Assembly (NCBI GenBank): GCA_037446155.1
Contig: JBBIJE010000015.1
Location: 11,318 to 75,317 of the forward strand
Direction: 5' to 3'
Source of the DNA: Myxococcales bacterium
Lineage (GTDB): Bacteria; Desulfobacterota; Binatia; UTPRO1; JBBIJE01
Length of the DNA: 64,000 nt
Part shown: positions 884 to 62,386 of the stretch, one piece after another
Layout of the letters: each line of letters opens with the position of its first letter
Numbering within the stretch: the stretch's first letter is position 1
Notes under the pieces: generated by a model
The model's input: only the letters and a program-made list of their open reading frames with translations
Databases searched by the model: none
What the model was told of the DNA's origin: nothing
Position numbers and translations under genes: made by a program

Positions 884-3394
884 CTAGCTTCGGGCCGCGT
901 CTCGTAGCAGGGGCTCGCGCTCCGCCAGTTCCCCCTCCTGTCCGACGGAAGCGCTGATACGCATCCCGTAAAAAGATCGCCAGACGAAAAAAAGCGAGAT
1001 CGCCAGAAAAACGCACCCCAGCAAAGCGCTCGTTAGACGACTCAACGCCAGGGCGAATTCCACCGCCAGTAGCCCGAAGAGGGTCGTGAACTTGATGACC
1101 GGGTTCATCGCCACCGAGGAAGTGTCTTTGAACGGATCACCTACCGTGTCCCCGACAACGGTCGCCGCGTGAAGGGCGGTCCCCTTTTCCCGAAGGTCGA
1201 CCTCGACTACCTTCTTGGCGTTGTCCCACGCAGCCCCCGCGTTGGCCATGAAGATCGCCTGGAAAAGCCCGAACAAGGCGATCGAAATCAGGTAGCCGAT
1301 GAACAGGTACGGGTCGAGACAGGAAAACGCGAGAGTGCTGAAAAACACGGTCAAGAAAACATTGAACATTCCCCTTTGCGCGTACTGGGTGCATATCTCG
1401 ACGACCCGCCTGCTATCGTCGAGCGAGGCCCTGGTCGTGCCCTCGAGGCGGATGTGCCGCTTGATGAACTCCACCGCTCGATACGCCCCCGTGGAAACCG
1501 CTTGGGTAGATGCGCCGGTGAACCAATAGATGGCGGCGCCGCCGCTGATCATTCCGAGCAGGAAGGGGGGATGGAGAATCGACAACTTCTGGATGCCTTG
1601 GGTCAAGCCGTGGGTCAGGAGCATGATGATAGAAAAAACCATCGTCGTCGCGCCCACCACGGCCGTCCCGATAAGGACCGGTTTGGCGGTTGCCTTGAAG
1701 GTATTTCCCGCGCCGTCGTTGGACTCCAGAAGCTGCTTGGCTCGGTCGAAGTCCACGCTGAAACCGTGGTCGCGCTCGAGTTCTTCGCGAATCCCGGGGA
1801 GCGTTTCGATCACCGAAAGCTCGAAAACCGACTGAGCGTTGTCGGTGACCGGACCGTAAGAATCCACGGCGATAGTCACCGGCCCCATCCCCAGAAAGCC
1901 GAAGGCGAGGAGCCCGAAGGCGAAAACGGCCGGCGCAATCATGACGTCGGAAAAGCCCGCGCTGCTCATGCCATAGGCGATGGCCATGAGGAGCAAAATG
2001 CTCGCACCTATCCAGTAAGAGCTGAAATTGCCGGCGACGAATCCCGAGAGGATGTTAAGAGAGGCGCCCCCCTCTCGGGTCGAAGCTACGACCTCGCGAA
2101 CGTGTCCGGACTCCGTGGATGCAAATACCTTCACCAGCTCCGGGATCATGGCTCCCGCCAACGTCCCACAGGAAATCACGCTGGCAAGCCTCCACCATAG
2201 GGTCGGGTTTCCTCCGAGACCGGGGATGAGGAGATAGGAAACCAGGTAGGTCAGCGCGATCGAGACGCCCGAGGTGATCCACACCAAAGAGGTCAGAGGC
2301 GACTCGAAACTCATTCGGTCCGCATGCCCGAAGCGAAGCCGCGCCAGCAGGTCGTTCAAGTGGTAGGAAAGGCCACTGGCTAGGATCATCATCACCCTCA
2401 TTACGAAGATCCACACGAGCAGCTCGACCTGCACTTGCGCTTGCGGGACGGCGAGAACGACGAAGGTGATCAACGCAACGCCCGTTACCCCGTACGTCTC
2501 GAACCCGTCCGCGGTCGGCCCCACCGAGTCGCCCGCGTTGTCTCCCGTGCAGTCGGCGATCACGCCGGGATTGCGGGCGTCGTCCTCCTTGATATTGAAC
2601 ACGATCTTCATGAGGTCCGATCCGATGTCCGCGATCTTCGTGAAGATCCCCCCGGCGATGCGTAAAGCCGCCGCCCCCAGAGATTCGCCGATCGCAAAGC
2701 CGATGAAACATGGGCCGGCGTAGTCGCCGGGAACGAAGAGCAGGATGCAGAGCATTATGAAAAGCTCCACGCTGATGAGCGCCATCCCGATGCTGAGACC
2801 CGCTTCGAGCGGAATGTGGTAGACGGGAAAGGGCTTGCCGCGCAGACCTGCGAAGGCGGTTCGGGAGGTGGCAAGCGTGTTGATTCTGATGCCGAGCCAG
2901 GCCACGCCATAACTTCCGGCGATCCCGACCAGGCTGAAGATGAGAATAGTGCATACCCTTGCCGGCGTGAACTGAAGGAGCACGCCGAAGTAAGCCACGA
3001 TCATGACGCCGACGAAGGTCTCGAGGAGAAGGAGAAACTTTCCCTGGGTCAGGAGGTAGGTTTTACAGGTTTCGTATATCAAGTCCGATACCTCCTGCAA
3101 CGAGCGATGCACCGGAAGCTTGCGGAGCTTGGCGAACGTGGCTAGTCCGAAGGCGAGTCCGAGCGCGCAGATGATGAGGCCGAGGCTAAGGACGGCCCTT
3201 CCACTCATGCCCCAGAAACTCACCGAATCGAGATCGGGAAGAACGAGCTCTGCTTCGCTCGCTCCCGCTGGCGTGGCCCCGAGCACTACGGTAAAAGCGA
3301 CCATAGCCGGAAGCACAAACGAGATCAGTGCGCGGGCTCTGCGCCCAAACCCCGCAAGCGACGCCGGTGTGTGGTCAGACGGTCTTGAATACAT
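884..3394 (-). CDS. hppA: Membrane-bound proton-translocating pyrophosphatase (V-type H+-PPase), K+-independent signature
   Basis: Motifs GGIFTKIADIGSDL, EDDARNPGVIADCTGDNAGD, DSYGPVTDNA, GNTFKA, GDTVGDPFKDTS; many TM helices. ATG at 3394 follows a GGAGAGG RBS. Confidence 0.95.
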   Translation of the reverse strand: MYSRPSDHTPASLAGFGRRARALISFVLPAMVAFTVVLGATPAGASEAELVLPDLDSVSFWGMSGRAVLSLGLIICALGLAFGLATFAKLRKLPVHRSLQEVSDLIYETCKTYLLTQGKFLLLLETFVGVMIVAYFGVLLQFTPARVCTILIFSLVGIAGSYGVAWLGIRINTLATSRTAFAGLRGKPFPVYHIPLEAGLSIGMALISVELFIMLCILLFVPGDYAGPCFIGFAIGESLGAAALRIAGGIFTKIADIGSDLMKIVFNIKEDDARNPGVIADCTGDNAGDSVGPTADGFETYGVTGVALITFVVLAVPQAQVQVELLVWIFVMRVMMILASGLSYHLNDLLARLRFGHADRMSFESPLTSLVWITSGVSIALTYLVSYLLIPGLGGNPTLWWRLASVISCGTLAGAMIPELVKVFASTESGHVREVVASTREGGASLNILSGFVAGNFSSYWIGASILLLMAIAYGMSSAGFSDVMIAPAVFAFGLLAFGFLGMGPVTIAVDSYGPVTDNAQSVFELSVIETLPGIREELERDHGFSVDFDRAKQLLESNDGAGNTFKATAKPVLIGTAVVGATTMVFSIIMLLTHGLTQGIQKLSILHPPFLLGMISGGAAIYWFTGASTQAVSTGAYRAVEFIKRHIRLEGTTRASLDDSRRVVEICTQYAQRGMFNVFLTVFFSTLAFSCLDPYLFIGYLISIALFGLFQAIFMANAGAAWDNAKKVVEVDLREKGTALHAATVVGDTVGDPFKDTSSVAMNPVIKFTTLFGLLAVEFALALSRLTSALLGCVFLAISLFFVWRSFYGMRISASVGQEGELAEREPLLRDAARS

Positions 3395-3831
3395 GTTAAA
3401 ACACCTCTCCTTGGCTCTAAGCTCCCGGCCATAACTCGACACCTGCCCCGACCTCTTCGAGCCCTTGGAGCTGCCGCGAACTCCGGGCAAGGGGGCGCGA
3501 TGCGGTCGAGCGGCGGCGCAAGCGGCGGTCCTCCCGCCCTTTCCACGCTCGCCCCCTCGCCAAACCCCGACCCCAGCAGCCGTGCGGTCCGTGGGTAGGT
3601 TTCCGGCTGGAGCCAATAAACGCATGGCATTGTAGCGAAAGGGCAACGCTATAGCTAGGCCAGGCGCCCTAGGCCGACGTGTCGTGCTCGCCGCTCAGAG
3701 GGGGATAGAGCAGGGGACAAGGTGCCGCCCGAGGCTTCCGCCGTTGCGAGGGAACGTCTAGGGAAGCGGTGTCTGCTCGCGGACACTGGCACGGTTACAG
3801 GCCCCGCAATGGGCGAGCCCCACAGCCAAGG

Positions 3832-4614
3832 TCAATGCGAAGGACTAGACGGCTGTGGCGAATCCGTCCCGGCCTCTTTCGCATTGTCGTCCTGGGAGTG
3901 CAGGACGATAACGGAGACCCTGCGGTTTCCCGGATCCAGAGGGTTATTCGGGTTGTAAAGGCGCCGATCGGCGAACCCTCTCACCTGAATCACTTGATCG
4001 GGATTCAAGCCGGAAGCTTCCATTAGGCGCCGGGCGGCGTTGGCGCGATCGGCGGAAAGTTCCCAGTTGCCGTACTGGGCCCCGTTGGAGAACGGCTTGG
4101 AGTCGGTGTGGCCTTCTATCAAGACCTTGTTAGGCAATCGCCCCAGTTGCTGCGCCAGCATGACCAACAGTTCGCGACCTTTGTCGGTCGGTCGGGGGCT
4201 GCCGCTGTCGAAAAACATGCCCCTGGCGGTCTCCAGCAATTCTACGCGCAGCCCTTCCTTCCCAACTGTTAGCTGCACCTGATCGCGCAGCGCCTCATCT
4301 TGGGTCCACTTCGCGAGCTGGCTGGTGATTTCGTCCTTGAGCTTGCCCATCTCGTCCTTGCTCACCTTGATTTCCGGCGCCGCGCCCGTCTTCGCCGCGG
4401 CCACAGGGCGGGTCCGGTGGGAGGGATCGCGAAAGTACCCCCCCACGGCCTCTCGAATCTCTTTCTTGGTGTTCATTAGCCAAAGCACGATAAAAAGCGC
4501 CATCATCGCAGTCACGAAGTCGGCATAGGCCACCTTCCATGCCCCGCCATGGTGGCCTTGATGGACCACCTTCTTCTTCACGATCATCGCGGGTTGAGGT
4601 TTTGCGTCCGGCAT
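3832..4614 (-). CDS. motB: Flagellar motor stator protein MotB
   Basis: WKVAYADFVTAMMALF TM motif with the essential Asp; OmpA-like domain with EGHTD and NWELSADRANAARR. Confidence 0.95.
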   Translation of the reverse strand: MPDAKPQPAMIVKKKVVHQGHHGGAWKVAYADFVTAMMALFIVLWLMNTKKEIREAVGGYFRDPSHRTRPVAAAKTGAAPEIKVSKDEMGKLKDEITSQLAKWTQDEALRDQVQLTVGKEGLRVELLETARGMFFDSGSPRPTDKGRELLVMLAQQLGRLPNKVLIEGHTDSKPFSNGAQYGNWELSADRANAARRLMEASGLNPDQVIQVRGFADRRLYNPNNPLDPGNRRVSVIVLHSQDDNAKEAGTDSPQPSSPSH

Positions 4615-4620
4615 AGCGCA

Positions 4621-5499
4621 CTACGCGGCGGCAGCTTGTGCGGATGCACCGCCGGCCTTGCAAGCCTTTTCCAATTCTGGGAATGTCGGCCTTACCCGCG
4701 GAGGAATCGATCGCCTGGCAAATTCTACCGCTAGAATAGGCGGGCAACCTTTCACGAAGGACATTATGGCCACGCGAAGGCAATTATAATACTGGGCCTG
4801 AGCCTCGGCGGCCTTGGCCATCCTCGCCGCGAGCGGGCCGAAGAAGCCATAACACATGAGGATGCCAAGAAAGGTGCCAACCAGCGCGGCGGCGACTTTG
4901 TGCCCGATCTCCTCCGGCGGACCGCCAAGAGAGCCCATGGTAATCACCACACCGAGTACCGCGGCGACGATGCCAAGGCCAGGCAACGAATCCGCCATCG
5001 TAGTCAGGGCCGACGCGGGCGCATTGGTCTCGTGGTGGTGGACTTCCATGTCGAGCTCCATCATCTGGTCGAGTTGCAATGGTTCTACGCCGCCCATGAC
5101 CGCCACCCGCAGGGTGTCGCACACGAACTGAACCGTGTGGTGGTCCTTCAAGAAGCGAGGGTTCTTGGAGAATATCGCGCTCTTCTGTGGGTTCTCCACA
5201 TCTGCCTCGAGCGCAACCATTCCGCCCTTGCGGGCGTTGTTGAAGAGCGCATTTAGCATCTTGAGGCTATCCAAATAGAGATCCTTGGTGTACTTGCTGG
5301 GCAGGAAGACGCCGGCAATACCCCGTACCATCTCGAGCATAGTTGCGGGCGGGTTGGCGATGAGGATTGTTCCCAACGCCGCTCCCCCGATGATAACGAG
5401 TTCGGCCGGCTGTACGAGGACCAGCAAGACGCCTTTTTCCAAGAGGTACCCCCCGACCACAGCACAAACGACCACCAGTATCCCAAGGATCGCGAGCAC
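4621..5499 (-). CDS. motA: Flagellar motor stator protein MotA
   Basis: QPAELVIIGGAA, LPGLGIVAAVLGVV, ALVGTFLGILMCYG, AVEFARR; directly upstream of motB. Confidence 0.95.
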   Translation of the reverse strand: MLAILGILVVVCAVVGGYLLEKGVLLVLVQPAELVIIGGAALGTILIANPPATMLEMVRGIAGVFLPSKYTKDLYLDSLKMLNALFNNARKGGMVALEADVENPQKSAIFSKNPRFLKDHHTVQFVCDTLRVAVMGGVEPLQLDQMMELDMEVHHHETNAPASALTTMADSLPGLGIVAAVLGVVITMGSLGGPPEEIGHKVAAALVGTFLGILMCYGFFGPLAARMAKAAEAQAQYYNCLRVAIMSFVKGCPPILAVEFARRSIPPRVRPTFPELEKACKAGGASAQAAAA

Positions 5500-5524
5500 C
5501 GGCTACCTTCACCGTCCTCCTGGC

Positions 5525-5552
5525 ATATCGGCATCGGTTCGGCAGAGCTTTA
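5525..5552 (-). promoter_or_regulatory. Sigma-28 (FliA/SigD)-type promoter for motAB
   Basis: Minus strand reads TAAA-N16-GCCGATAT, ending 25 nt before the motA GTG. This matches the TAAA-N15/16-GCCGATAW consensus. Confidence 0.7.
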
Positions 5553-5721
5553 ACGTGCAACAGTCAGGTCGCCATGGCAGTCCGAGTCCTCGGGCGGGCC
5601 CATGTTCCGCGCCCGCCGGTCGCCACGTCGTTGCGGTCACTTCTGGCGCAACCTTGGGCGAGGGAGCTGGCCTGCGCCACCAGTCGCGGCTAAGTAATAG
5701 GTACGCGGACGTCGAGGGAGG

Positions 5722-5928
5722 CTAGCACTCGGCCGGCGAAGCGCCCTGCTGGTCCTGGATCTGGGTGGCGACTTCGACCTTTCGCACGCCCAAGAAGGAC
5801 AAAAGGTGGATCAGGGGCTCGGTCAGGACGGCTCCCTCCTCCGCTAGAAGGAAATCACCGCACACCACCTTCCGCGTCACCCTCATCCCCGCCTTGAGCT
5901 CCCGGCACTTCAAAAAGCTGCTGTACAT
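5722..5928 (-). CDS. Small hypothetical protein (68 aa) resembling the N-terminal module of HD-GYP proteins
   Basis: GGAGG RBS before ATG 5928. The sequence ELKAGMRVTRKV...LLAEEGAVLTEPLIHLLSFLGVRKVEV fits the LxxGMxxxxxV...LLxxGxxLTxxxIxxLxxxGIxxVxV pattern. Confidence 0.6.
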   Translation of the reverse strand: MYSSFLKCRELKAGMRVTRKVVCGDFLLAEEGAVLTEPLIHLLSFLGVRKVEVATQIQDQQGASPAEC

Positions 5929-6251
5929 CGCCTGCCTCCATTCCCTAACGGGAGGGCTCGAACTGCCTACCGTCGTGGCGTCCCATACCTTTTGTCGCGC
6001 AATGCAACCTCCGTACCAAGGAAGATCTGCCGGCTCCGAGAGCCGCTCGGTTGGAAGCGATCCTCCAAAGGACACCTCGACTTCGGGGGCAAAAAGCCCC
6101 CGCGTGCAGATAAAAGGGGGCAAGCCCGCCGCCCTTCAGAAAACGCTAGTGGGGTGTCGATTTTATGACGCTCGGTATGCTCGTTGACCCCCCGGGGTGG
6201 GCGAGAGCGCCGAGGCCGAAGGCCGGACCTGCCACAGAAGCGTAAGATGGT

Positions 6252-6291
6252 ATTCCCCGGGCAGGCCGCTTGAGTTGCCTGCCCGGGGAAT
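6252..6291 (-). terminator. Strong stem-loop downstream of the Cyc2-like gene
   Basis: Perfect 15-bp inverted repeat ATTCCCCGGGCAGGC / GCCTGCCCGGGGAAT, 16 nt after the stop codon. No clear U-tract. Confidence 0.6.
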
Positions 6292-6307
6292 GGATCGGTG
6301 AAGGAGC

Positions 6308-7513
6308 TTAGATCGCCAGGATGAAGAAGAGAGTCACGCGGCGCTCGGCCGGGTGATCCAGGCTAGTGAAGTACTCGAAGTTTGCCCGGAAATTCTCCGT
6401 GACGTAAACGCCGAGATTCGCGGTGAGGTCGGTTTCGTCGTTATCGCCGTCGTTTTTCTCGTAGCTATCGATCCTAAGAAGGGGGACGACCTGGAAGAGC
6501 GGGACGGGCAGATTCGCCAGGACATCGCCCCGCAACGTATAGAAAACCTCACCGTAGAAGACATCGTTCTCCTGGCTCGTCCTCCCGGGCAGCCCGGTGG
6601 CTCCGTCATCCTCGGCCCGCATCCAGGCGCTTCGCAAAGTGAGGCCGGCAAGCTCGAGATTGCCATCCACGCCCCAGCGCTGGAAGTCCTGGTCTTCTTC
6701 GCCACCGCTTATCGACTGGCGGCCGGTTATCGCGAAGCCCCCGATGGTAAGCTCCGGCAGCAAGTCGATCGCCAGTCTGCCCAGAAGATCCTGAGCGCCC
6801 GCTCCTTCGGGATCGTCGCGGTCGGCGGCGTAACTAAAGAGGTAGAAAATCTTGTTGATTATCGGGTCGCGGCCGTAAGCGCTTATAAACTGCTCGTTGT
6901 CCAGAAGGCGGGGCGCCCCCGGTGCCGTTCCCCGCTCGAAGATCGACGGGCGGCCGCGGGTGAGCCTAAGGCCGTCTCGGAGCGTGTTGTAAGGATCCGC
7001 CGTGAAGGCTGGACCCCAGCCACCCACCACGTTCATCGTCTGGTGCAGATGCAATCCGGCCCAGCCTGCCGCGAACTCGGGATCGAAATCGTTCTCGTCT
7101 TCCATCTCCAGCTCGCCGAAGAAGGAGCCGAATTTGCTGAAGTTGCCGGCTGCCATGACCTCGAACTCGTGGAGCGCCCTAAGCTTTGCGTCCCGATCCT
7201 TCTGGCGGTCGTAGGGCCTGGAGTTCAAAACCACCGCCACCGGCGGCACCGTCGGAAGCGAAAGGTAATCGTTGAGCTCCGTTTGCCCCTGCGGCTGCCC
7301 GCGCGATACCATGTACCCGTTTTCCTTGAATTGGCGGCCGAAGCTATTGAGCGAGGGCCAAGCGCTGTGGCACGCGGAGCAAGGCATCTCGTAGGCGCGC
7401 GCAAAAGCGGGAATCGCTTCGGCCGGCCGCGGGCTCACGAGACAGGCCGCTGCCGCGATCGCTAGCCCCGGGAGAAGAACAGACAGGCGACTGCTTGTTG
7501 TTGGTTTCACCAT
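6308..7513 (-). CDS. Cyc2-like fused monoheme cytochrome c / outer-membrane beta-barrel
   Basis: Signal peptide ending AEA, then IPAFARAYEMPCSACHSAWPSLNSFGRQFKENGY (AxPxFAR, CxxCH, PxL, GRxFK), followed by ~320 aa of amphipathic beta strands. AAGGAGG RBS. Confidence 0.8.
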   Translation of the reverse strand: MVKPTTSSRLSVLLPGLAIAAAACLVSPRPAEAIPAFARAYEMPCSACHSAWPSLNSFGRQFKENGYMVSRGQPQGQTELNDYLSLPTVPPVAVVLNSRPYDRQKDRDAKLRALHEFEVMAAGNFSKFGSFFGELEMEDENDFDPEFAAGWAGLHLHQTMNVVGGWGPAFTADPYNTLRDGLRLTRGRPSIFERGTAPGAPRLLDNEQFISAYGRDPIINKIFYLFSYAADRDDPEGAGAQDLLGRLAIDLLPELTIGGFAITGRQSISGGEEDQDFQRWGVDGNLELAGLTLRSAWMRAEDDGATGLPGRTSQENDVFYGEVFYTLRGDVLANLPVPLFQVVPLLRIDSYEKNDGDNDETDLTANLGVYVTENFRANFEYFTSLDHPAERRVTLFFILAI

Positions 7514-7723
7514 CGCAACCTCCTTTCCTAATCCACCTCTGCCCCTCCTGCTCGAAACCTTAAGCAGGTGGGCGACCCCACTTCCTTCAACCCAACGCGC
7601 CCATATCTGCTACGAACGGGTGTCCAAAGTCAAGAGAAAACCAAAAATTTTTTTTCGTCGGTTTCCCGGGTCTAACCGGTGCCCATTGACAGGGGGTGGG
7701 GCCGCCTAGTAGAAGCCACCGCC

Positions 7724-8578
7724 ATGGTGAGAAGCGCGGGGTGGGGTAAATTGGTGGCCTGCTGTATGGTTTTCCTCGGGGCAGGCTGTTCGCTTTCGGG
7801 CCCGCGGAGGCCCGACGTGTGGCCGGTCTCCTGCGAGGAGGCTCCCAAGCTTGCGGTAAGCACCCTGGAGGATTTGGGCTACCGCATAACCGGTCGTTTC
7901 GACCCGTCGGGAAAAGCCCAGGGCGTGGTAACGGCTAAAAAAGGCAGTGGCCGAGCGAAAGAGCGTGTAAGCGTCGTTCTTCGTTGCGAAACGGGTATTT
8001 TGAGCAAGACGGGCGATTCTGTCGAGGTCCTACCTCAAGCCATCGCGTGGCACCCGGGCAAATCGGAGTTCCCGGACCGTTTCAGAGGGCGATTTGCCGA
8101 GTATGCTGCCGGGACGGCAAAACCGATGGAGCGGCCCGCCGAGCAGCCGGGGCCGGTCGAGCTTTCCGCGGCTCTCCTTTCCGACGCTCAGGTGGAGCAG
8201 GAGTTCAACATACACCTTGGCCCGGCGGGGCTCAAAGCCGCCAAAGTAGAGGTGCGAAATCTGGGCGAGCGCCCATTTGTCATGTCGGCCGATCTTGCGC
8301 GGGTGAGGAAGCCGTCGGGCGAGACGATTTCGGCGGTGCCATTAAGGGAGGCGTCGAATCTGGTCGCGAGAAGCGGCGCAGGTAGCGGAAGGCAAATCTA
8401 CCAGGATCTCGAGCAAGCGTATCTGGGTCACCGCCTGCTAAAGCCGGGAGCGGAGCGCTCGGGCCTTCTATTTTTCTCGGGCTCGCCCGAGGGAAAACTT
8501 ACCCTTCCCGTGATGGATGCGGAATCGGGGGAGGCCAAGGAGCTCAACGCCCCGCTCCACCCCGCGGCGGGCCGGTAG
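7724..8578 (+). CDS. Hypothetical lipoprotein
   Basis: Lipobox-like LGAGC after a hydrophobic stretch; TTGACA at 7686-7691 upstream; divergent from the Cyc2-like gene. Confidence 0.65.
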   Translation: MVRSAGWGKLVACCMVFLGAGCSLSGPRRPDVWPVSCEEAPKLAVSTLEDLGYRITGRFDPSGKAQGVVTAKKGSGRAKERVSVVLRCETGILSKTGDSVEVLPQAIAWHPGKSEFPDRFRGRFAEYAAGTAKPMERPAEQPGPVELSAALLSDAQVEQEFNIHLGPAGLKAAKVEVRNLGERPFVMSADLARVRKPSGETISAVPLREASNLVARSGAGSGRQIYQDLEQAYLGHRLLKPGAERSGLLFFSGSPEGKLTLPVMDAESGEAKELNAPLHPAAGR

Positions 8579-8661: not shown

Positions 8662-10788
8662 CTAACGCTTGTCTACGAGCACCAGCCCGGTCACCTCGAA
8701 GCTTCCGAACTTATCGCCGACGGCAAGGGGCTGCGAGCAGGAAACGTGTATGACGTCGTGCTCTACGATCGCGCCTTCGAAGAGGACGTCGATCCACAGG
8801 TCTCCTCTGAGGGCGCCCTTGCCGGCCGCCGCCCCACCCGCGGTGACCTCGTCGCCCAGCGCAACCGGAAAGGCATCGAGCACCGTGCTGCTCCCGGAGC
8901 GGCCGACCACCCATACGGGGGAGGCGAAATCGGCGCCCTCGCAAGGGGAGCCTCCTGAATCGTCGTCGTCCTTCTTGTCCTTCGAGGGGCAGCCACAGCT
9001 CGCCTTGTCCCCCTGGTCGTTGTCGCTAGCCGAACAGCCCTCTCCGGTGTAGCGAAGCGTGACCGAGGCCACCTTCTTTCCTTCGGTGCAGGCTACAGGT
9101 GCGCTTTGCACGGTAACTACTGCCGAGGCACTGGCGTTGCACGACTGGCCCCCTTCGAGCTCTCCGGAGACCAGAACCTGGTTTTCCGTGGTCTCCGTGA
9201 TGAGTGTGGTCGCCTGGAGCGTCGCTTTTTCTCCGGGGGGAAGCTCGGCGATCGGGCTTTCGGGGAGCTCCCCCAGCTTATCGTCGATTACGGTGATCCC
9301 GAAGAGCGTGGCATTGCCCGCGTTGGTGACCTCGTAGGTATAGGTCACATTGTCGGCGAGCGAGTGGAGGCCGCCCTCGGTGGTTTGGAGAGCTACGACT
9401 TCGAGGCTTCCGAAGCGGTCCCCCGGATTGAGCGGCCGCGAGCAGGAGGTATGGATGAGATCGAACTCCACCACGGCGCCGCTTGCGTTTCTTACGGTGA
9501 CGCGGGTCTCCGAGCTCAATATCCCGCTGGCAGCGGCTGCTACCACGACGCTGTCGCCCAGGGCGACGCCCGCTTGGTCGAGCAGAACCTGATCGTTCTT
9601 ATCGCGCGCCACTATGCGCACGGGGCTTGCGAACGCGGCATCGCCCGTACAGCTCGCCTTCGTGCCCTGCTGATTGTCGCTCGCACCGCAGCCCCGCCCG
9701 TCGTAGCGAAGCTCCATCCATTCGACCTTCCCCTGGCAGGCGTTATCGGGGGGAGGAGGAAGAGTGTCCGGCGACGCAGTTTTGGTTACCTCGATGCGGC
9801 AGACCGGTGCCGGGGTCGGCGTGGGGGTGGCGGTCGGCTTCGGTGTAGGCGTGGGAGTCGGCGTCTCGGCCGGGGTCGGTGTCAACGGTGGCCCTTCGGT
9901 GCAGTCGTTGCTGCATCCGTCGGTATCTACGCCGTTGCCGTCATCGCACTCTTCGCCGTCATCCAGGAAGCCGTCGCCGCAGACGGGAAGCTCGAGTTGC
10001 AAGCCAAAGTCGCTGCGAACCTTCCTGGCTATGAGCCGCCCCGAGAAGTCACCGTTGCCCATTCCGACTTTCGCGAAACGAGCGTCGATCAAAGCCCGCA
10101 CCACGGTACGCTTGCCGAAGCGAAGGGATCCGCCCGCGAGATTGATCTTGGGCCTGCTGCCGCCAGGCGGTGGGCTCAAGAGGCTCCCGTTGCTGATTAC
10201 CACCGAAGACACCACGTTTATCACGGTAGGAGATGCCGTGACGACCAATACCCCCTTGCCGATCTTTAGTCTGCACATCGTGTAGGTGCCGCCGGATAGC
10301 GTTACGGTGGCATCGTCGCGAAATACGATATTGCCATAGACACCAGGGGGCAGAACCGCTCCTTCGCCACGTCGCACCGTTATGGCCGGGCCGCCGCAGA
10401 GGAAATCGGCTACGGGCGGAAGGACCGGTATAATCGGCGGGGTAAAGCTCTGGGGCCCCGATCCCCGCACGATCGCCGGGTCGAATCTTCCGCTCACAGT
10501 GTTTGCGAAAAGGTCGTAGATACTAGAGCCGGCGCCGATCCGGGTTATATCCCCCACAACTTCCGTCCCATCCGCAAGAAAGGAGCCCCTTCCCATGCTG
10601 AGCTTCCCGCCGGTTTCGTTGACGCCGATGCTTCCCGTGGCGTGGGGATTTTTTAGCTTCGCCGATTCCAGCGCGAAAATCACGTAGTCTTCCAGATCGG
10701 TCGACTGCGCTTGGGCTTGCGGCGCACCCAGCGCCCCTGCGATAAACGCGAACAGCGCGGCTGTTGCGATTCTCTTTGGCAAAAGCAT
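8662..10788 (-). CDS. Secreted modular protein: beta-solenoid, Myxococcus-type Cys-rich repeat, PT linker, Ig-like domain and two IHxSCS domains
   Basis: AAAGGAG RBS; signal peptide ending AQA; CGDGFLDDGEECDDGNGVDTDGCSNDC; (TP)n linker; VTYTYEVTNAGN Ig-like strand; duplicated LRYxGxGCxASDNxQGxKASC...IHxSCSxPLxxGDxFGS. Confidence 0.8.
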   Translation of the reverse strand: MLLPKRIATAALFAFIAGALGAPQAQAQSTDLEDYVIFALESAKLKNPHATGSIGVNETGGKLSMGRGSFLADGTEVVGDITRIGAGSSIYDLFANTVSGRFDPAIVRGSGPQSFTPPIIPVLPPVADFLCGGPAITVRRGEGAVLPPGVYGNIVFRDDATVTLSGGTYTMCRLKIGKGVLVVTASPTVINVVSSVVISNGSLLSPPPGGSRPKINLAGGSLRFGKRTVVRALIDARFAKVGMGNGDFSGRLIARKVRSDFGLQLELPVCGDGFLDDGEECDDGNGVDTDGCSNDCTEGPPLTPTPAETPTPTPTPKPTATPTPTPAPVCRIEVTKTASPDTLPPPPDNACQGKVEWMELRYDGRGCGASDNQQGTKASCTGDAAFASPVRIVARDKNDQVLLDQAGVALGDSVVVAAAASGILSSETRVTVRNASGAVVEFDLIHTSCSRPLNPGDRFGSLEVVALQTTEGGLHSLADNVTYTYEVTNAGNATLFGITVIDDKLGELPESPIAELPPGEKATLQATTLITETTENQVLVSGELEGGQSCNASASAVVTVQSAPVACTEGKKVASVTLRYTGEGCSASDNDQGDKASCGCPSKDKKDDDDSGGSPCEGADFASPVWVVGRSGSSTVLDAFPVALGDEVTAGGAAAGKGALRGDLWIDVLFEGAIVEHDVIHVSCSQPLAVGDKFGSFEVTGLVLVDKR
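9810..9885 (-). repeat. Pro/Thr-rich linker (low-complexity coding repeat)
   Basis: Encodes TPTPAETPTPTPTPKPTATPTPTPAP. Confidence 0.7.
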
Positions 10789-10976
10789 GAGAACTCCTTT
10801 TCGAGAGGGCAATTCGTGGTACCGTTGCAAGGTCGCTCTGCTTCCTCCAGGTACGCTGGAGGATCCCGGCAAGATGTTTGGGGTAAGCCCTTGCCGGTGG
10901 GTCGAAGTGGCACTAGAACTCATCATCCAAAGGGCTCGGCCGAAGCTGAGTAGATCCCCGCACCCGGTTTACCGGG

Positions 10977-60590: not shown

Positions 60591-61580
60591 CTAAGGATTG
60601 GGGATTGTGGCGTCGAGGAACTTGAAGTACTCCACGTCGTCGTCGGGGAACTCGAAAATGTCCCCGTCCGGGCCTCGGATAGTATCCGGGCCCGGCTTTA
60701 TCCCGGATATGTCCACTCCAGGGTCGGTGCTGTTGAACGCAAACGTTGCTGTGTCGCTGCCCGTTCCGCCGCGGATCTGATCGACTTCCACTTGGCCCTC
60801 GATTTCTTCTGCCCTGCCGAGCTCGATGACGTCGTCGTTTGGGCCAGAATCGACCGAGTCATTGCCCCTGTTCGGGGTAACGAGGTCGGTGCCGCTTCCC
60901 GCAAGAATGCTGTCGTCGTCGGCCCCCCCTCGCAAGATATCGTTGCCCGATCCTCCGTCCATAACGTCGCTGCCCGGCCCCCCGATGATTACGTCGTCTC
61001 CATTCCCCCCGTTTAGCGTGTCGTTTCCCTTCCCCCCGATTATCCCATCCTGCCCGTCACTGCCGTTTATGGTATCGTCGTCCTCCCGACCTTCGATGAT
61101 ATCCGACCCGCTTCCACCGGTGATCAGGTCGTTCCCCAGTCCCGCGGACACGACGTTCTCCCCCTCGCCGGCAGCAATTGTATCCGCGCCATGGCTTCCT
61201 AGGATCGCGTCATCGCCCAAACCCCCATCGATGTTGTCATTTCCCTTGCCGCCGCTGATACTGTCGTTTCCGTCGCCCCCCTCGATCAGGTTCGCGTCGC
61301 GCGAGCGATCGGCGCTGATGATATCGTTACCCGCTTCCCCTTTCAGTACGTTAAGGCCTTTGCTTCCCTCTATTATGTCCGGCCCGTCTCGTCCCTCGAG
61401 GGTGTCGTTACCTTTCCGACCCTCGAGGATGTCGCTTCCCGCCGTGCCGATAAACACATCATCGAAGTTCGTGCCGACGCAAATGGGAGGGCAAGTCGCG
61501 GGAACGATCGATTGTGCCCACGCCGTGCTGCCCGGCATGCAGAGCAGCCCAAATACGATCGGCAGTTTCGCCAGCCTCAC
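60591..61580 (-). CDS. Calcium-binding RTX-like (GGxGxD) repeat protein with signal peptide
   Basis: GTGA-coupled start at 61580 (the track ATG at 61595 is an alternative); signal peptide ending AWA; ~20 nonapeptide repeats. Confidence 0.85.
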   Translation of the reverse strand: MRLAKLPIVFGLLCMPGSTAWAQSIVPATCPPICVGTNFDDVFIGTAGSDILEGRKGNDTLEGRDGPDIIEGSKGLNVLKGEAGNDIISADRSRDANLIEGGDGNDSISGGKGNDNIDGGLGDDAILGSHGADTIAAGEGENVVSAGLGNDLITGGSGSDIIEGREDDDTINGSDGQDGIIGGKGNDTLNGGNGDDVIIGGPGSDVMDGGSGNDILRGGADDDSILAGSGTDLVTPNRGNDSVDSGPNDDVIELGRAEEIEGQVEVDQIRGGTGSDTATFAFNSTDPGVDISGIKPGPDTIRGPDGDIFEFPDDDVEYFKFLDATIPNP

Positions 61581-62386
61581 GGTGCGAAGGTACATATCTC
61601 TACCGTTCCGTCGAACTTGTATACGTCGTTTCCACCCGAGTCGGGGCCGATCACGTAGTCGGGGCAGTTGTTGACCACCCCCTGAGCGGGGTCGTCTTGA
61701 AAACCGAAGTCGGCCGTATCCGACCCCGCCCCACCGAAAACGAGATTGATTTCCGCGTCACCGTCGACATTCTCCGGATAGTCTCCAAGGACAATCGTAT
61801 CGTTTCCATCTTCCCCAAAAATTATGTCGCTTCCCACCCCGCCTCGCAGGACATCGTCGCCAGCCCCCCCCCTCACTACGTCGTCGCCAGGGCCGCTTCC
61901 GATGGTATCGGCGCCGTCGCCTCCCGAGACTATGTCCCAGCCGTCGCCCGACGAGATTGTGTCGGCGCCGTCGCCGCCGTCGATGATGTCCTGTCCCTTG
62001 TCCGATGTGACGACGTCGTCGCCGGAACCGCCGACGATTATGTCGCCAGTCCTACCGCTCCGGAGAATGTCCGCACCCGGTCCCCCATCGAGCAAGTTGC
62101 GGCCCCGGCCCCGTTCGACGAGCTCGTCGTCTCCATCCCCGCCGAACAGCAGGTCGTTCTTGCCATTGCCTTCCGCGTTATCGCGGCCATCGCCGGCGGA
62201 GATCAGGTCCCTGCCGCCGCCCCCGAAAATATCATCGCCCGCTGCCGAGCCGGTAATTTCGTCGTTGCCGCTCGTGCCGATGATCGTAGCTGCCTGGAGA
62301 ACGCCGACATAGGGGAAAGTCAGGACCGCGCTGATCGCTGCTCCTACAAGCAGAGCCCCCGTCCGCGTGAGGCGCAACCTTCTCAC
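61577..62386 (-). CDS. Calcium-binding RTX-like (GGxGxD) repeat protein with signal peptide
   Basis: Signal peptide ending LQA; tandem GGDGADTI-type repeats; C-terminus paralogous to that of the neighbouring RTX gene. Confidence 0.85.
   Translation of the reverse strand: MRRLRLTRTGALLVGAAISAVLTFPYVGVLQAATIIGTSGNDEITGSAAGDDIFGGGGRDLISAGDGRDNAEGNGKNDLLFGGDGDDELVERGRGRNLLDGGPGADILRSGRTGDIIVGGSGDDVVTSDKGQDIIDGGDGADTISSGDGWDIVSGGDGADTIGSGPGDDVVRGGAGDDVLRGGVGSDIIFGEDGNDTIVLGDYPENVDGDAEINLVFGGAGSDTADFGFQDDPAQGVVNNCPDYVIGPDSGGNDVYKFDGTVEICTFAP

What the first reader, a model, noticed from the sequence alone, without database searches (positions are those of the whole stretch)
6308..7513. Cyc2-like cytochrome-porin fusion: candidate Fe(II) oxidase or extracellular electron conduit
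The mature N-terminus IPAFARAYEMPCSACHSAWPSLNSFGRQFKENGY has the AxPxFAR, CxxCH and PxL signature of Cyc2, the outer-membrane iron oxidase of Acidithiobacillus, Gallionellaceae and Zetaproteobacteria (established). It is fused to a beta-barrel-like region. The gene is monocistronic with a strong RBS and a 15-bp stem, and has no periplasmic cytochrome partner beside it. Iron oxidation is not proven, because many distant Cyc2 homologs are uncharacterised.
Basis: partly seen in the sequence, partly recalled or inferred. Interest (0 to 1): 0.72.

Follow-up and report, generated by a model that had tools for sequence, protein, structure and literature searches.

The report
Cyc2-type haem porin, stand-alone gene
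This gene encodes an outer-membrane pore with one haem group fused to its front end, a relative of the Cyc2 proteins that iron-oxidising bacteria use to take electrons from dissolved iron; it is a new member of a known family and its activity is untested.

Summary
Window 6308-7513 (- strand) is a 401-aa ORF. It has a Sec-type signal peptide, a mature N-terminus IPAFARAY, one CSACH haem site, PSL, and a predicted 16-strand barrel whose best structural matches are OprO and OprP (Z 25.2). An AGGAGG ribosome site and a 15-nt perfect hairpin flank it, and no cytochrome gene lies in the window.

A profile of its close family aligns over 352 columns with Gallionella/Mariprofundaceae proteins, one of them named "Cyc2-like cytochrome" (probability 99.8%). 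It is therefore a Cyc2-type fused cytochrome-porin.

It is not in the Gallionella/Zetaproteobacteria branch or the Burkholderiales branch. It sits in a large, well-supported clade of ~400-aa proteins from uncultured Binatia, Methylomirabilota, Nitrospirota, Acidobacteriota and Gammaproteobacteria. It has Ala where the published motif requires Gln or Lys.

In 14 of 32 related loci a c-type cytochrome gene lies within two ORFs. The host genome has one copy, two MtrB/PioB porins beside ten-haem ORFs, haem-copper oxidases and NarI, but no RuBisCO.

Fe(II) oxidation is the most likely role but is not shown. Metagenome surveys already report such genes in many phyla, so interest is modest.

The parts
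6308..7513 (-). Coding sequence of the 401-aa Cyc2-type fused cytochrome-porin (the stop codon is 6308-6310)
   Evidence: There are 2585 homologues at E<=1e-3. It is the only copy in the genome.
7415..7513 (-). Signal peptide, residues 1-33, with cleavage predicted after AEA (A33)
   Evidence: Read. A33 is kept in 96% of the 173-member clade. The Edman N-terminus of Leptospirillum Cyt572, YPGFARKYNF, starts at the equivalent position (review PMC13741234, passage). No predictor was run.
7241..7414 (-). Small N-terminal cytochrome region, residues 34-91 (IPAFARAY ... CSACH ... PSL ... FGRQFKENGY)
   Evidence: and alignment A1. This part carries the BLASTP similarity to named Cyc2-like proteins: 45% over 75 aa, E 4e-14, and 37%, E 7e-12. 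In the haem-free model residues 1-58 have pLDDT <50 and residues 59-91 about 56-71.
7367..7381 (-). Haem c attachment motif C45-S-A-C-H49, the only CxxCH in the protein
   Evidence: It is invariant in 173 of 173 clade members. All 219 motif-bearing homologues have exactly one CxxCH.
6311..7240 (-). 16-strand beta-barrel porin domain, residues 92-401. It carries the acidic motifs H115-E-x-E118 and E134-x-E-x-E-D-E140, and a long loop (168-206) with D173-P-Y.
   Evidence: AlphaFold2 gives 16 strands, with block pLDDT mostly 70-92. Foldseek matches OmpC/OmpF at E 1e-10. VIA-align matches OprO/OprP at Z 25.2 (2o4v: rmsd 3.1, 302 aligned).
7519..7524 (-). Shine-Dalgarno sequence AGGAGG, 5 nt upstream of the ATG
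   Evidence: Read directly.
6252..6291 (-). Perfect 15-bp stem with a 10-nt loop, 16 nt after the stop codon. It is a possible transcript-end or stabilising hairpin and has no U-tract.
   Evidence: It was not listed by the intrinsic-terminator scan.

Best explanation
The gene encodes a Cyc2-type outer-membrane protein: a short monohaem c-type cytochrome segment fused to a 16-strand porin.

Inferred steps, from what is established for c-type cytochromes and outer-membrane proteins: Sec export, cleavage after A33, covalent haem attachment at C45/C48 with H49 as axial ligand, and insertion of the barrel into the outer membrane.

Most likely mechanism (inferred): a dissolved one-electron donor, most probably Fe2+, enters a barrel mouth lined with conserved glutamates and aspartates. 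It reduces the haem, which passes the electron to soluble periplasmic c-type cytochromes encoded elsewhere in the genome. From there the electron goes to a haem-copper oxidase or to nitrate reductase.

Family identity is close to certain (about 0.95). The Fe(II)-oxidase role is the leading but unproven reading; the confidence given below is for the whole statement.
For: Architecture
- One CxxCH follows a signal peptide.
- The model has 16 strands.
- OprO and OprP are the top structural matches at Z 25.2, the same porins Keffer et al. name for Cyc2 PV-1.

Homology
- hhalign of A1 against A3 gives 99.8% probability, E 4.3e-29, 352 columns, query 17-389 against target 6-416. A3 holds 20 proteins, including 'Cyc2-like cytochrome [Ca. 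Gallionella acididurans]' and a Mariprofundaceae protein.
- Some homologues carry precomputed Porin_O_P or Porin_4 Pfam domains.

Conserved acidic residues, out of 173 clade members
- E116 146, E118 140, E134 146, E136 144, E138 140, D139 139, E140 134.
- E134/E136/E138 alternate with the hydrophobic L135/M137 on strand 3, so they should face the lumen (inference).
- The FEMS review reports D137/D138 as a central Fe(II) site in A. ferrooxidans Cyc2 (passage).

Partners
- In 14 of 32 related loci a c-type cytochrome gene lies within two ORFs of the homologue. It is often a ~100-aa monohaem or ~210-aa dihaem gene directly adjacent on the same strand.
- Named plasmid homologues in Caballeronia and Methylocystis are followed by annotated c-type cytochromes. 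The Paraburkholderia locus has one two genes upstream.

Own genome
- 19 Cytochrome_CBB3-domain hits.
- 3 haem-copper oxidase hits over the cut-off.
- NarI at 226 bits.

Precedent
- Cyc2 proteins of clusters 1, 2 and 3 have each oxidised Fe(II) in experiments (passages; PMC13647500 sections 20-21).
Against: - Nothing here shows haem attachment, expression or Fe(II) oxidation. No RNA run holds the gene.
- The gene has no redox partner beside it.
- RuBisCO was not found in a genome rated 100% complete, so a Gallionella-like autotrophic iron-oxidiser lifestyle is not indicated. The only other carbon-fixation hint is a weak CdhC hit of 34 bits.
- The genome is rich in multihaem cytochromes and has two MtrB/PioB porins beside ten-CxxCH ORFs. 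That equipment is used for electron flow in either direction.
- The protein lies outside the branch that holds the named Gallionella/Mariprofundaceae proteins and the Burkholderiales/Methylocystis homologues. No tested Cyc2 sequence was on hand to place in the tree.
- Keffer et al. call function in the divergent Cluster 3 'most uncertain'.
- The position after FAR is Ala, not Gln/Lys.
- No Fur box lies in the window.
Confidence: 0.55

Rival explanations
1. The protein has the same fold and haem but does a different job. It is a general one-electron gate across the outer membrane that works outward (reducing soluble Fe(III) chelates, Mn or humic shuttles), or takes electrons from donors other than iron. 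It would serve as a small auxiliary to the organism's MtrAB-type and multihaem machinery.
For: - The genome has two MtrB/PioB porins (384 and 359 bits), each next to a ten-CxxCH ORF.
- It also has ORFs with 18, 14, 13, 12 and 11 CxxCH motifs.
- RuBisCO was not found.
- A Cluster-1 Cyc2 from Ghiorsea titrated at -130 mV (abstract and passages), a potential compatible with electron flow either way.
- In two gammaproteobacterial loci (L033, L047) the homologue sits directly upstream of a small cytochrome c and a flavocytochrome-c sulfide dehydrogenase flavoprotein.
- The Tenderiales preprint considers Cyc2 at most auxiliary for electron uptake there (passage).
Against: - Every Cyc2-family protein tested so far was tested as, and behaved as, an Fe(II) oxidase.
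- A single haem inside a narrow 16-strand barrel cannot reach solid minerals (argument of Keffer et al., abstract).
- The conserved acidic lining suits a small cation such as Fe2+.
Confidence: 0.25
2. The protein serves iron handling rather than energy. It oxidises incoming Fe2+ at the cell surface, or senses it, to limit iron toxicity or to condition iron uptake, without feeding a respiratory chain.
For: - It is a single stand-alone gene with no respiratory partner in the window.
- The family is spread over many lineages not known to live on iron.
- 30 of the 40 relatives searched in the same order or class had no match, and the other 10 had only distant, N-terminal-only matches. This patchiness is typical of an accessory trait.
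Against: - No Fur box or other iron-regulation signal was found in the window.
- In 14 of 32 related loci the gene is paired with periplasmic c-type cytochromes, which points to onward electron transfer.
Confidence: 0.15
3. The protein is an ordinary ion-selective porin whose N-terminal CxxCH is not loaded with haem, or the gene is silent.
For: - The barrel alone resembles the phosphate porins OprO/OprP and the general porins.
- No expression data exist.
- The last residue is Ile, not the usual Phe that ends many family members.
Against: - C45, C48 and H49 are kept in 173 of 173 clade members, and P53, L55 and G59 in 98-100%. This is purifying selection on the haem site.
- The frame is intact and has a strong ribosome site.
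- A 94%-identical copy exists in another assembly.
Confidence: 0.04

Closest known systems
Cluster-1 Cyc2 of neutrophilic iron oxidisers (Mariprofundus PV-1, Ghiorsea TAG-1, Gallionellaceae). Represented here by P0229 'Cyc2-like cytochrome [Ca. Gallionella acididurans]' and the Mariprofundaceae protein P0262.
   Same: - Signal peptide, xIPAFAR start of the mature protein, one CxxCH, PxLNxFGRxFK, and a 16-strand barrel.
- Full-length profile match at 99.8%.
- OprO/OprP as structural neighbours.
- Similar size; Ghiorsea Cyc2 is 389 aa.
   Different: - Pairwise similarity is limited to the first ~75-95 residues.
- Cluster-1-type proteins read FARQ[T/V] and have four residues between His and Pro; the window protein reads FARAY and has three.
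- The two types lie on opposite sides of a branch with support 99 (FastTree) or 94-97 (IQ-TREE).
- The window clade has its own H-E-x-E and E-x-E-x-E-D-E motifs.
Cluster-2 Cyc2 of Acidithiobacillus ferrooxidans and its Burkholderiales/Hyphomicrobiales relatives. Represented here only by plasmid homologues from Caballeronia, Ralstonia, Paraburkholderia and Methylocystis.
   Same: - Fused monohaem cytochrome-porin with PxFAR and CxxCH.
- An acidic pair inside the barrel is reported as an Fe(II) site in A. ferrooxidans (D137/D138; review passage). This is close in numbering to E138/D139 here, but the two were not aligned.
   Different: - Those proteins are longer (461-588 aa by my ORF calls), read FARQTG ... 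PELT, and group with the Gallionella type, not with the window.
- They sit beside c-type cytochromes, and in Caballeronia also a HiPIP. The window gene stands alone.
- That the Burkholderiales proteins represent Cluster 2 rests on a passage of PMC10654088, not on a test here.
Cluster-3 Cyc2 homologues: Leptospirillum Cyt572 and the Cyc2 of 'Ca. Mariimomonas ferrooxydans' (Thermodesulfovibrionia)
   Same: - Cyt572 starts YPGFARKY. FARKY is also the commonest form in the ~400-aa clade.
- The clade contains Nitrospirota/Thermodesulfovibrio MAG proteins.
- The Mariimomonas protein has 16 strands and oxidised Fe(II) in E. coli.
   Different: - Cyt572 is 570 aa and has an unusual haem.
- No Cluster-3 reference sequence was available, so membership could not be tested.
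- The Mariimomonas sequence is shown only as a figure in the supplement.
Phosphate-selective porins OprP/OprO and general porins OmpC/OmpF
   Same: 16-strand barrel. Z 25.2 (2o4v: rmsd 3.1, 302 residues aligned) and Z about 23 for the general porins. Some homologues score for Pfam Porin_O_P.
   Different: - Those porins have no haem domain, and sequence identity is 10-14%.
- OprP is lined with arginines for anions. The conserved lining residues here include many acids.
MtoAB/PioAB/MtrAB porin-cytochrome complexes
   Same: They are outer-membrane electron conduits, and the same genome encodes two of them.
   Different: They are two-protein systems: a ~26-strand porin sheathing a decahaem cytochrome (review passage). 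The window protein is a one-haem fusion and is not homologous to them.

Membership tests
Cyc2 fused cytochrome-porin (criteria of Keffer et al. 2021 / FeGenie) | N-terminal signal peptide | tested here: met
   Residues 1-33 have a basic start, a hydrophobic core and AEA before I34. A33 is kept in 96% of the clade. This was judged by inspection and by analogy with the Cyt572 Edman N-terminus; SignalP was not run.
Cyc2 fused cytochrome-porin (criteria of Keffer et al. 2021 / FeGenie) | Exactly one CXXCH haem-binding motif near the N-terminus | tested here: met
   C45-S-A-C-H49 is the only CxxCH. It is invariant in 173 of 173 clade members.
Cyc2 fused cytochrome-porin (criteria of Keffer et al. 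2021 / FeGenie) | AXPXFAR core upstream of the CXXCH | tested here: met
   A33-I-P-A-F-A-R39 is followed by A-Y and three residues before C45, the same spacing as in the Gallionella-type proteins.
Cyc2 fused cytochrome-porin (criteria of Keffer et al. 2021 / FeGenie) | [Q/K] then [T/Y] directly after FAR (used as a hard screen for the published 1,593-sequence tree) | tested here: not met
   The window protein reads FAR-A-Y, with Ala at the [Q/K] place and Tyr at the [T/Y] place. Among 219 motif-bearing homologues the first place is K in 98, Q in 65 and A in 19. The protein would therefore have been screened out of the Keffer tree. I treat this as a one-residue departure within a homologous family, not as evidence against homology.
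Cyc2 fused cytochrome-porin (criteria of Keffer et al. 2021 / FeGenie) | PXL motif just downstream of the CXXCH | tested here: met
   P53-S-L55, with three residues between H49 and P53. 168 of 219 homologues have three residues and 51 have four; the latter are the Gallionella/Mariprofundaceae type.
Cyc2 fused cytochrome-porin (criteria of Keffer et al. 2021 / FeGenie) | Length of at least 365 aa | tested here: met
   401 aa.
Cyc2 fused cytochrome-porin (criteria of Keffer et al. 2021 / FeGenie) | 16-strand porin fused behind the cytochrome part | tested here: met
   AlphaFold2 with a 25-sequence alignment gives 16 strands over residues 92-400, pTM 0.75. OprO/OprP match at Z 25.2 and OmpC/OmpF at about 23.
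Cyc2 fused cytochrome-porin (criteria of Keffer et al. 2021 / FeGenie) | Score above cut-off with a FeGenie Cyc2 cluster HMM | not testable with these tools
   The FeGenie HMMs are not in any library on hand. Pfam and NCBIfam hold no Cyc2 model.
Cyc2 fused cytochrome-porin (criteria of Keffer et al. 2021 / FeGenie) | Covalently bound haem and Fe(II)-oxidising activity | not testable with these tools
   This needs expression, a haem stain and an Fe(II) assay.
Cyc2 Cluster 1 (Zetaproteobacteria, Gallionellaceae, Chlorobi) | Groups with named Cluster-1-type sequences in a tree | tested here: not met
   In FastTree (272 rows) the window sits in the ~400-aa clade (n=173, support 99), while the Gallionella/Mariprofundaceae clade (n=48, support 99) lies on the other side. 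IQ-TREE LG+G4 (105 rows) gives the same split, with support 94 and 97.
Cyc2 Cluster 2 (Acidithiobacillus ferrooxidans type) | Groups with the A. ferrooxidans / Burkholderiales type | tested here: inconclusive
   The window does not group with the Caballeronia, Ralstonia, Paraburkholderia and Methylocystis homologues. No A. ferrooxidans sequence was on hand, and their Cluster-2 status is taken from a paper passage.
Cyc2 Cluster 3 (Cyt572, Zetaproteobacteria cluster 3, Mariimomonas) | Groups with named Cluster-3 sequences in a tree | not tested
   No Cluster-3 reference sequence could be obtained through the tools. The only hints are the shared FARKY-type motif in the wider clade and the presence of Nitrospirota members.

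The most novel reading that the evidence does not exclude
The ~400-aa clade makes up 173 of the 272 sampled sequences. It has its own R-x-x-H-E-x-E and E-x-E-x-E-D-E motifs and lies apart from both the Gallionella/Zetaproteobacteria type and the Burkholderiales type. It could be a functionally separate branch of cytochrome-porins.

On this reading it is a general one-electron gate used by subsurface bacteria that do not live on iron (Binatia, Methylomirabilota, Nitrospirota, sulfur-oxidising Gammaproteobacteria). It would exchange electrons with soluble metal or sulfur species. In this host it would work beside two MtrAB-type conduits and was probably acquired horizontally.
Probability: 0.15. 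Interest if true: 0.6.

Novelty: new member of a known kind. Interest (0 to 1): 0.35.

Why it matters
Cyc2 is the main marker used to call iron oxidation from genomes. Surveys now report it in dozens of phyla, for example 97 MAGs across 20 phyla in one vent study.

This gene shows how far such calls stretch. It is a clear homologue by fold and profile, but it fails one position of the published motif. It sits in a large clade that lies apart from the named Cluster-1-type proteins and for which no tested member could be identified here. Its host lacks RuBisCO and carries multihaem machinery that can move electrons either way.

Testing one member of this ~400-aa clade would show whether thousands of similar environmental genes can be read as iron oxidases. 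The gene itself is an ordinary member of a known family.

Tried and rejected
Searches that gave no answer
- Pfam gave only a sub-threshold SlpA_C barrel hit (16.7 bits against a cut-off of 35), and NCBIfam gave nothing.
- The PDB sequence search gave 0 hits at E<=10.
- The listing of cluster members returned no organism names for 10 proteins.
- The ESM Atlas returned only 'hypothetical protein' clusters, one of them with Porin_O_P on 20% of its members.
- The sigma-70 promoter scan found 0 sites in 5500-8000.
- A recalled 19-nt Fur-box consensus found 0 matches in the window at up to 3 mismatches.
- Rfam found 0 matches in 5400-8000.

Expression
- No RNA holder is listed. Only 4 DNA runs from 2 studies (subsurface and hot-spring metagenomes) hold part of the gene, none with half of its sampled words or more.

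Taxonomy
- The window's MetH has as its best named hit a 'Ca. Eisenbacteria' protein at 66%. The next hits, at about 60%, are spread over many phyla. The lineage stays unresolved.

Trees
- The LG+C20 mixture tree did not finish in two 300-s calls, so I used LG+G4.
- Rows dropped before the trees: proteins under 360 aa or over 600 aa, or without CxxCH in the first 150 residues, and 9 duplicates (281 to 272 rows).
- The 105-row set was thinned by patristic distance, with named rows added.

Link to an experimentally tested protein
- The Ca. Mariimomonas sequence appears only as a figure in the supplement, so I could not tell whether it belongs to this clade.

H115 as the distal haem ligand
- I considered this and left it open. 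H115 is kept in only 140 of 173 clade members.
- By strand alternation it shares a face with F117 and V119, probably the lipid-facing side.
- No model coordinates were available to check. No conserved Met exists either.

Jobs not run
- Complex prediction and a second structure job were not run. A haem-free model cannot place the cytochrome part, and residues 1-58 already have pLDDT <50.
Full report
**What is in the sequence.** The - strand of window 6308-7513 carries a 401-aa ORF with an ATG start. A 370-aa ORF on the opposite strand (6353-7465) is the usual shadow frame of GC-rich DNA; all homology evidence belongs to the - strand frame.

Residues 1-33 (MVKPTTSSRLSVLLPGLAIAAAACLVSPRPAEA) look like a Sec signal peptide.

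AGGAGG lies 5 nt before the ATG (read). A perfect 15-nt inverted repeat (6252-6266/6277-6291, 10-nt loop) begins 16 nt after the stop. A 98-nt stretch around it folds at -43.2 kcal/mol, z = -4.04, and 0 of 200 shuffles fold as well. No T-run follows, so the terminator scan did not list it.

The upstream neighbour (7679-8578, +) is divergent and matches no Pfam family. Downstream lies an 800-bp stretch without a recognised gene, then motA, motB and an H+-pyrophosphatase. None of the 47 other window ORFs scanned matches a cytochrome family.

**It is a real, conserved protein family.**
- Pfam and NCBIfam hold no model for it, and no PDB sequence matches.
- phmmer against 1.84 billion representative proteins found 2585 at E<=1e-3, 251 at E<=1e-10 and 69 at E<=1e-30.
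- The word-indexed search found a 94%-identical protein, one at 64%, and about two dozen ~400-aa proteins at 34-49% identity. Those with names come from Binatia, NC10, Nitrospirae and Gammaproteobacteria MAGs.
- In a 25-sequence alignment 42 columns are invariant, among them C45, C48, H49, W52, P53, L55, G59 and R60.
- A scan of one genome per prokaryote species found 129 relatives. The 80 loci kept come from MAGs labelled Binatia, Methylomirabilota, Myxococcales, Gemmatimonadota, Nitrospirota, Acidobacteriota, Desulfatiglandales, Chromatiaceae, Thiotrichales, Woeseia, Acidiferrobacterales and Ca. Tenderia, among others.

**Fold.** AlphaFold2 with the 25-sequence alignment gave mean pLDDT 74.2 and pTM 0.75. 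It shows 16 beta-strands between residues 92 and 400, most in blocks of pLDDT 70-92. Residues 1-58 are below 50, as expected for a signal peptide and a haem domain modelled without haem.

Foldseek matched 16-strand general porins (OmpC, OmpF, Omp-Pst1) at E about 1e-10 and TM 0.55-0.68. VIA-align ranked OprO (4rjx, 4rjw) and OprP (2o4v: rmsd 3.1, 302 residues aligned) first at Z 25.2, with OmpK36/OmpC/OmpF at about 23. OprO (4RJW) and OprP (2O4V) are the structures Keffer et al. name as structural homologues of Cyc2 PV-1 (passage).

**Relation to Cyc2.** Keffer et al. define the family by these features (passages):
- a signal peptide;
- one CXXCH;
- an AXPXFAR[Q/K][T/Y] motif upstream;
- PXL downstream;
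- a 16-strand porin;
- a length of at least 365 aa.

The window protein meets all of these except one position: it reads FAR-A-Y, with Ala where Gln or Lys is required. Of 267 proteins stored when the script ran (the window protein among them), 219 carry the full motif pattern, and all 219 have exactly one CxxCH. The [Q/K] place is K in 98, Q in 65 and A in 19.

A profile search with a broad alignment reached proteins with source names: 'Cyc2-like cytochrome [Ca. Gallionella acididurans]', two Gallionella sp. proteins and a Mariprofundaceae protein. By BLASTP the window protein matches these only over its first 75-80 residues (45%, E 4e-14; 37%, E 7e-12). Profile against profile, the close family (A1) aligns with 20 Gallionella/Mariprofundaceae-type proteins (A3) at 99.8% probability, E 4.3e-29, over 352 columns (query 17-389, target 6-416). 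Homology to Cyc2 is therefore secure, and the strict motif miss is a one-residue departure.

**Which branch.** A FastTree of 272 sequences (414 columns) puts the window protein in a clade of 27 with support 99. Its named members are Binatia, Methylomirabilota, 'Myxococcales' and Gemmatimonadota MAGs, and the motif there is FAR[A/T/R][Y/T/E]. This clade lies inside a clade of 173 proteins, median length about 400 aa, also with support 99. All 169 of these with a recognisable Px[LIMV] motif have three residues between His and Pro (4 have none).

The Gallionella/Mariprofundaceae type (48 sequences, FARQ[T/V], four residues between His and Pro, median 443-450 aa, support 99) lies on the other side. 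So do longer FARKY forms from Gemmatimonadales, Acidobacteria, Nitrospinae and Krumholzibacteria.

To add named anchors I searched plasmid records and found homologues in Caballeronia (two records), Ralstonia, Paraburkholderia and Methylocystis. One Caballeronia record and the other three were fetched and added. In an IQ-TREE LG+G4 tree of 105 sequences these join the Gallionella/Mariprofundaceae proteins in one FARQT clade (n=12, SH-aLRT 97). The window stays in its own clade (n=8, 99) within the ~400-aa group (n=70, 94). The better mixture model did not finish.

The set is biased toward relatives of the query. It also lacks A. ferrooxidans Cyc2, Cyt572 and every other tested Cyc2. I can say the protein is not of the Cluster-1 type and does not group with the Burkholderiales type, which a paper passage links to A. 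ferrooxidans Cyc2. Whether the ~400-aa clade lies inside the published Cluster 3 could not be tested. The only hints are that Cyt572 begins YPGFARKY, the commonest motif form in the wider clade, and that the clade holds Nitrospirota members.

**Signature of the clade and a likely path for iron.** Across the 173 members the following are kept:

| Residue | Kept in (of 173) |
|---|---|
| H115 | 140 |
| E116 | 146 |
| E118 | 140 |
| E134 | 146 |
| E136 | 144 |
| E138 | 140 |
| D139 | 139 |
| E140 | 134 |
| D173 | 171 |

On the modelled strands 2 (114-124) and 3 (129-138), E116/E118 and E134/E136/E138 alternate with hydrophobic residues. They should therefore face the lumen. Given a periplasmic N-terminus, they should lie toward the extracellular ends of these neighbouring strands. 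This is inference, since no coordinates were available.

The long loop 168-206 holds the conserved D173-P-Y and T185-R. It occupies the position of loop 3, which constricts general porins (established knowledge of porins).

An acid-lined mouth suits a small cation. The FEMS review reports an outer and a central (D137/D138) Fe(II) site in A. ferrooxidans Cyc2 (passage). The Ghiorsea paper also discusses negative charges in the barrel (passage). No Met is conserved. H115 is a possible sixth haem ligand, but this remains unresolved.

**Partners.** I took 32 of the 80 related loci, chosen for a full-length match and some flank, and scanned up to two ORFs on each side (113 ORFs in all).
- In 14 of the 32 loci a c-type cytochrome family scored at E<=1e-4: L001, L007 (weak), L010, L012, L014, L016, L018, L029, L033, L035, L036, L040, L042 and L047.
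- The partner is often a ~100-aa monohaem or ~210-aa dihaem gene directly adjacent on the same strand.
- In L029 and L031 the neighbours are ccmF and a thioredoxin-like gene.
- In L033 and L047 the next genes are a small cytochrome c and a flavocytochrome-c sulfide dehydrogenase flavoprotein.
- In five Nitrospirota-type loci (L015, L019, L023, L028, L045) the gene sits among pyrimidine-synthesis genes (pyrC upstream in all five, pyrB in four, carA downstream in three).
- Within the window's own 27-member clade, 3 of the 7 loci examined have a cytochrome neighbour.

Related loci are not independent. Still, the share is far above what a few percent of cytochrome genes per genome would give by chance (inference).

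**The host genome.** The assembly is 3.48 Mb in 39 contigs, 62.9% GC, and rated 100% complete.
- It holds one Cyc2-type gene only.
- A crude ORF scan found 97 ORFs with at least one CxxCH, including ORFs with 18, 14, 13, 12, 11, 11, 10, 10 and 10 motifs.
- Two MtrB/PioB-type porins (384 and 359 bits) each lie next to a ten-CxxCH ORF.
- Three haem-copper oxidase hits exceed the cut-off. No FixO hit does.
- NarI scores 226 bits.
- There are 19 Cytochrome_CBB3-domain hits, some in small ORFs.
- RuBisCO was not found. CdhC scored a weak 34 bits. The ATP-citrate-lyase search was uninformative because its control was silent.

Among 40 genomes of the same order or class, 10 have a match. All 10 match only the N-terminal part of the query (within residues 2-141, E 1e-8 to 1e-13) and lie in ORFs mostly 430-500 aa long with other motif types. 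No full-length counterpart was found in those searched. This pattern, with nearest full-length relatives in other phyla, fits horizontal acquisition but does not prove it. The lineage could not be named: the best named MetH hit is Ca. Eisenbacteria at 66%.

**What it most likely does.** The shown facts are family, fold, conserved haem site and conserved acidic residues. The rest is inferred.

The leading reading (about 0.55) is a one-haem outer-membrane Fe(II) oxidase that hands electrons to periplasmic cytochromes. This role has been demonstrated for Cluster-1, -2 and -3 relatives.

The main rival (about 0.25) is a conduit for other donors or acceptors, or for outward flow. This fits a host equipped like a metal reducer or oxidiser without RuBisCO. 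It also fits the low potential (-130 mV) measured for one Cyc2. A protective or sensing role for iron (about 0.15) and a haem-less or silent gene (about 0.04) follow.

**Novelty.** Cyc2 homologues are already reported routinely from MAGs, including Methylomirabilia, in 97 MAGs of 20 phyla in one study (passages). A search for 'Cyc2' with 'Binatia' returned one paper, and that paper does not list cyc2 for its Binatia MAG. 'Cyc2' with 'Methylomirabilota' returned 14 papers.

The protein is a new member of a known kind. Its points of interest are the motif departure, its place in a large clade for which no tested member could be identified here, and its coexistence with two MtrAB-type modules.

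Noticed in passing
Own genome, outside the window: G000:C18:44692-47894 and G000:C1:92160-95384: Two MtrB/PioB-type porin genes (384 and 359 bits) each lie next to an ORF with ten CxxCH motifs, the layout of MtrAB/MtoAB/PioAB conduits. The C18 porin match contains one in-frame TAG.
   Followed up: partly
Own genome: G000:C26:5692-16072 and G000:C8:118643-141428: There are two dense clusters of multihaem cytochrome ORFs. On C26, six ORFs have 9, 18, 10, 11, 8 and 9 CxxCH motifs. On C8, ORFs have 11, 4, 4, 3, 3, 14, 2 and 13 (crude ORF scan).
   Followed up: no
L015, L019, L023, L028, L045 (Nitrospirota-type MAG loci): The Cyc2-type gene sits among pyrimidine-synthesis genes: pyrC (dihydroorotase) directly upstream in all five loci, pyrB before it in four (not found in L023), and carA downstream in three (L015, L019, L045; no downstream flank in L023 and L028). 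This is an odd, conserved position for a redox gene.
   Followed up: no
L033:2051-3664 and L047:7217-8843: In two gammaproteobacterial loci the Cyc2-type gene is directly followed by a small cytochrome c and a flavocytochrome-c sulfide dehydrogenase flavoprotein. This hints at a link to sulfide oxidation.
   Followed up: no
L006:5877-7067 and L007:7298-8512: In the window's own clade the next gene encodes a YNCE/cytochrome-d1-like beta-propeller. In L007 it has a weak N-terminal cytochrome c domain.
   Followed up: no
L082, L084, L086, L087, L089, L090 (genomes of the same order or class as the window's): Relatives of the host carry a different Cyc2-type protein of about 430-450 aa, with the motif AIPVFAR[V/I]Y.KPCG.CH and PQLNP, rather than the window's type.
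   Followed up: partly
window 8662-10926 (-): A 754-aa protein holds two DUF7467 domains, DUF7507 and a DUF4215 cysteine-rich repeat, with a Pro/Thr-rich linker. It is probably a secreted or surface protein of unknown role.
   Followed up: no
window 5500-6307: An 800-bp stretch between the Cyc2-type gene and motA has no recognised gene. ORFs of 133 aa (-) and 140 aa (+) overlap there; the 133-aa one has no Pfam match (the 140-aa one was not scanned), and there is no Rfam match.
   Followed up: partly
window 3832-5499 (-) and 884-3646 (-): A motA-motB stator pair stands between the Cyc2-type gene and an H+-pyrophosphatase, with no other flagellar family among the 47 window ORFs scanned.
   Followed up: no
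window 60591-61595 (-): A 334-aa protein holds eight stretches of RTX calcium-binding nonapeptide repeats.
   Followed up: no
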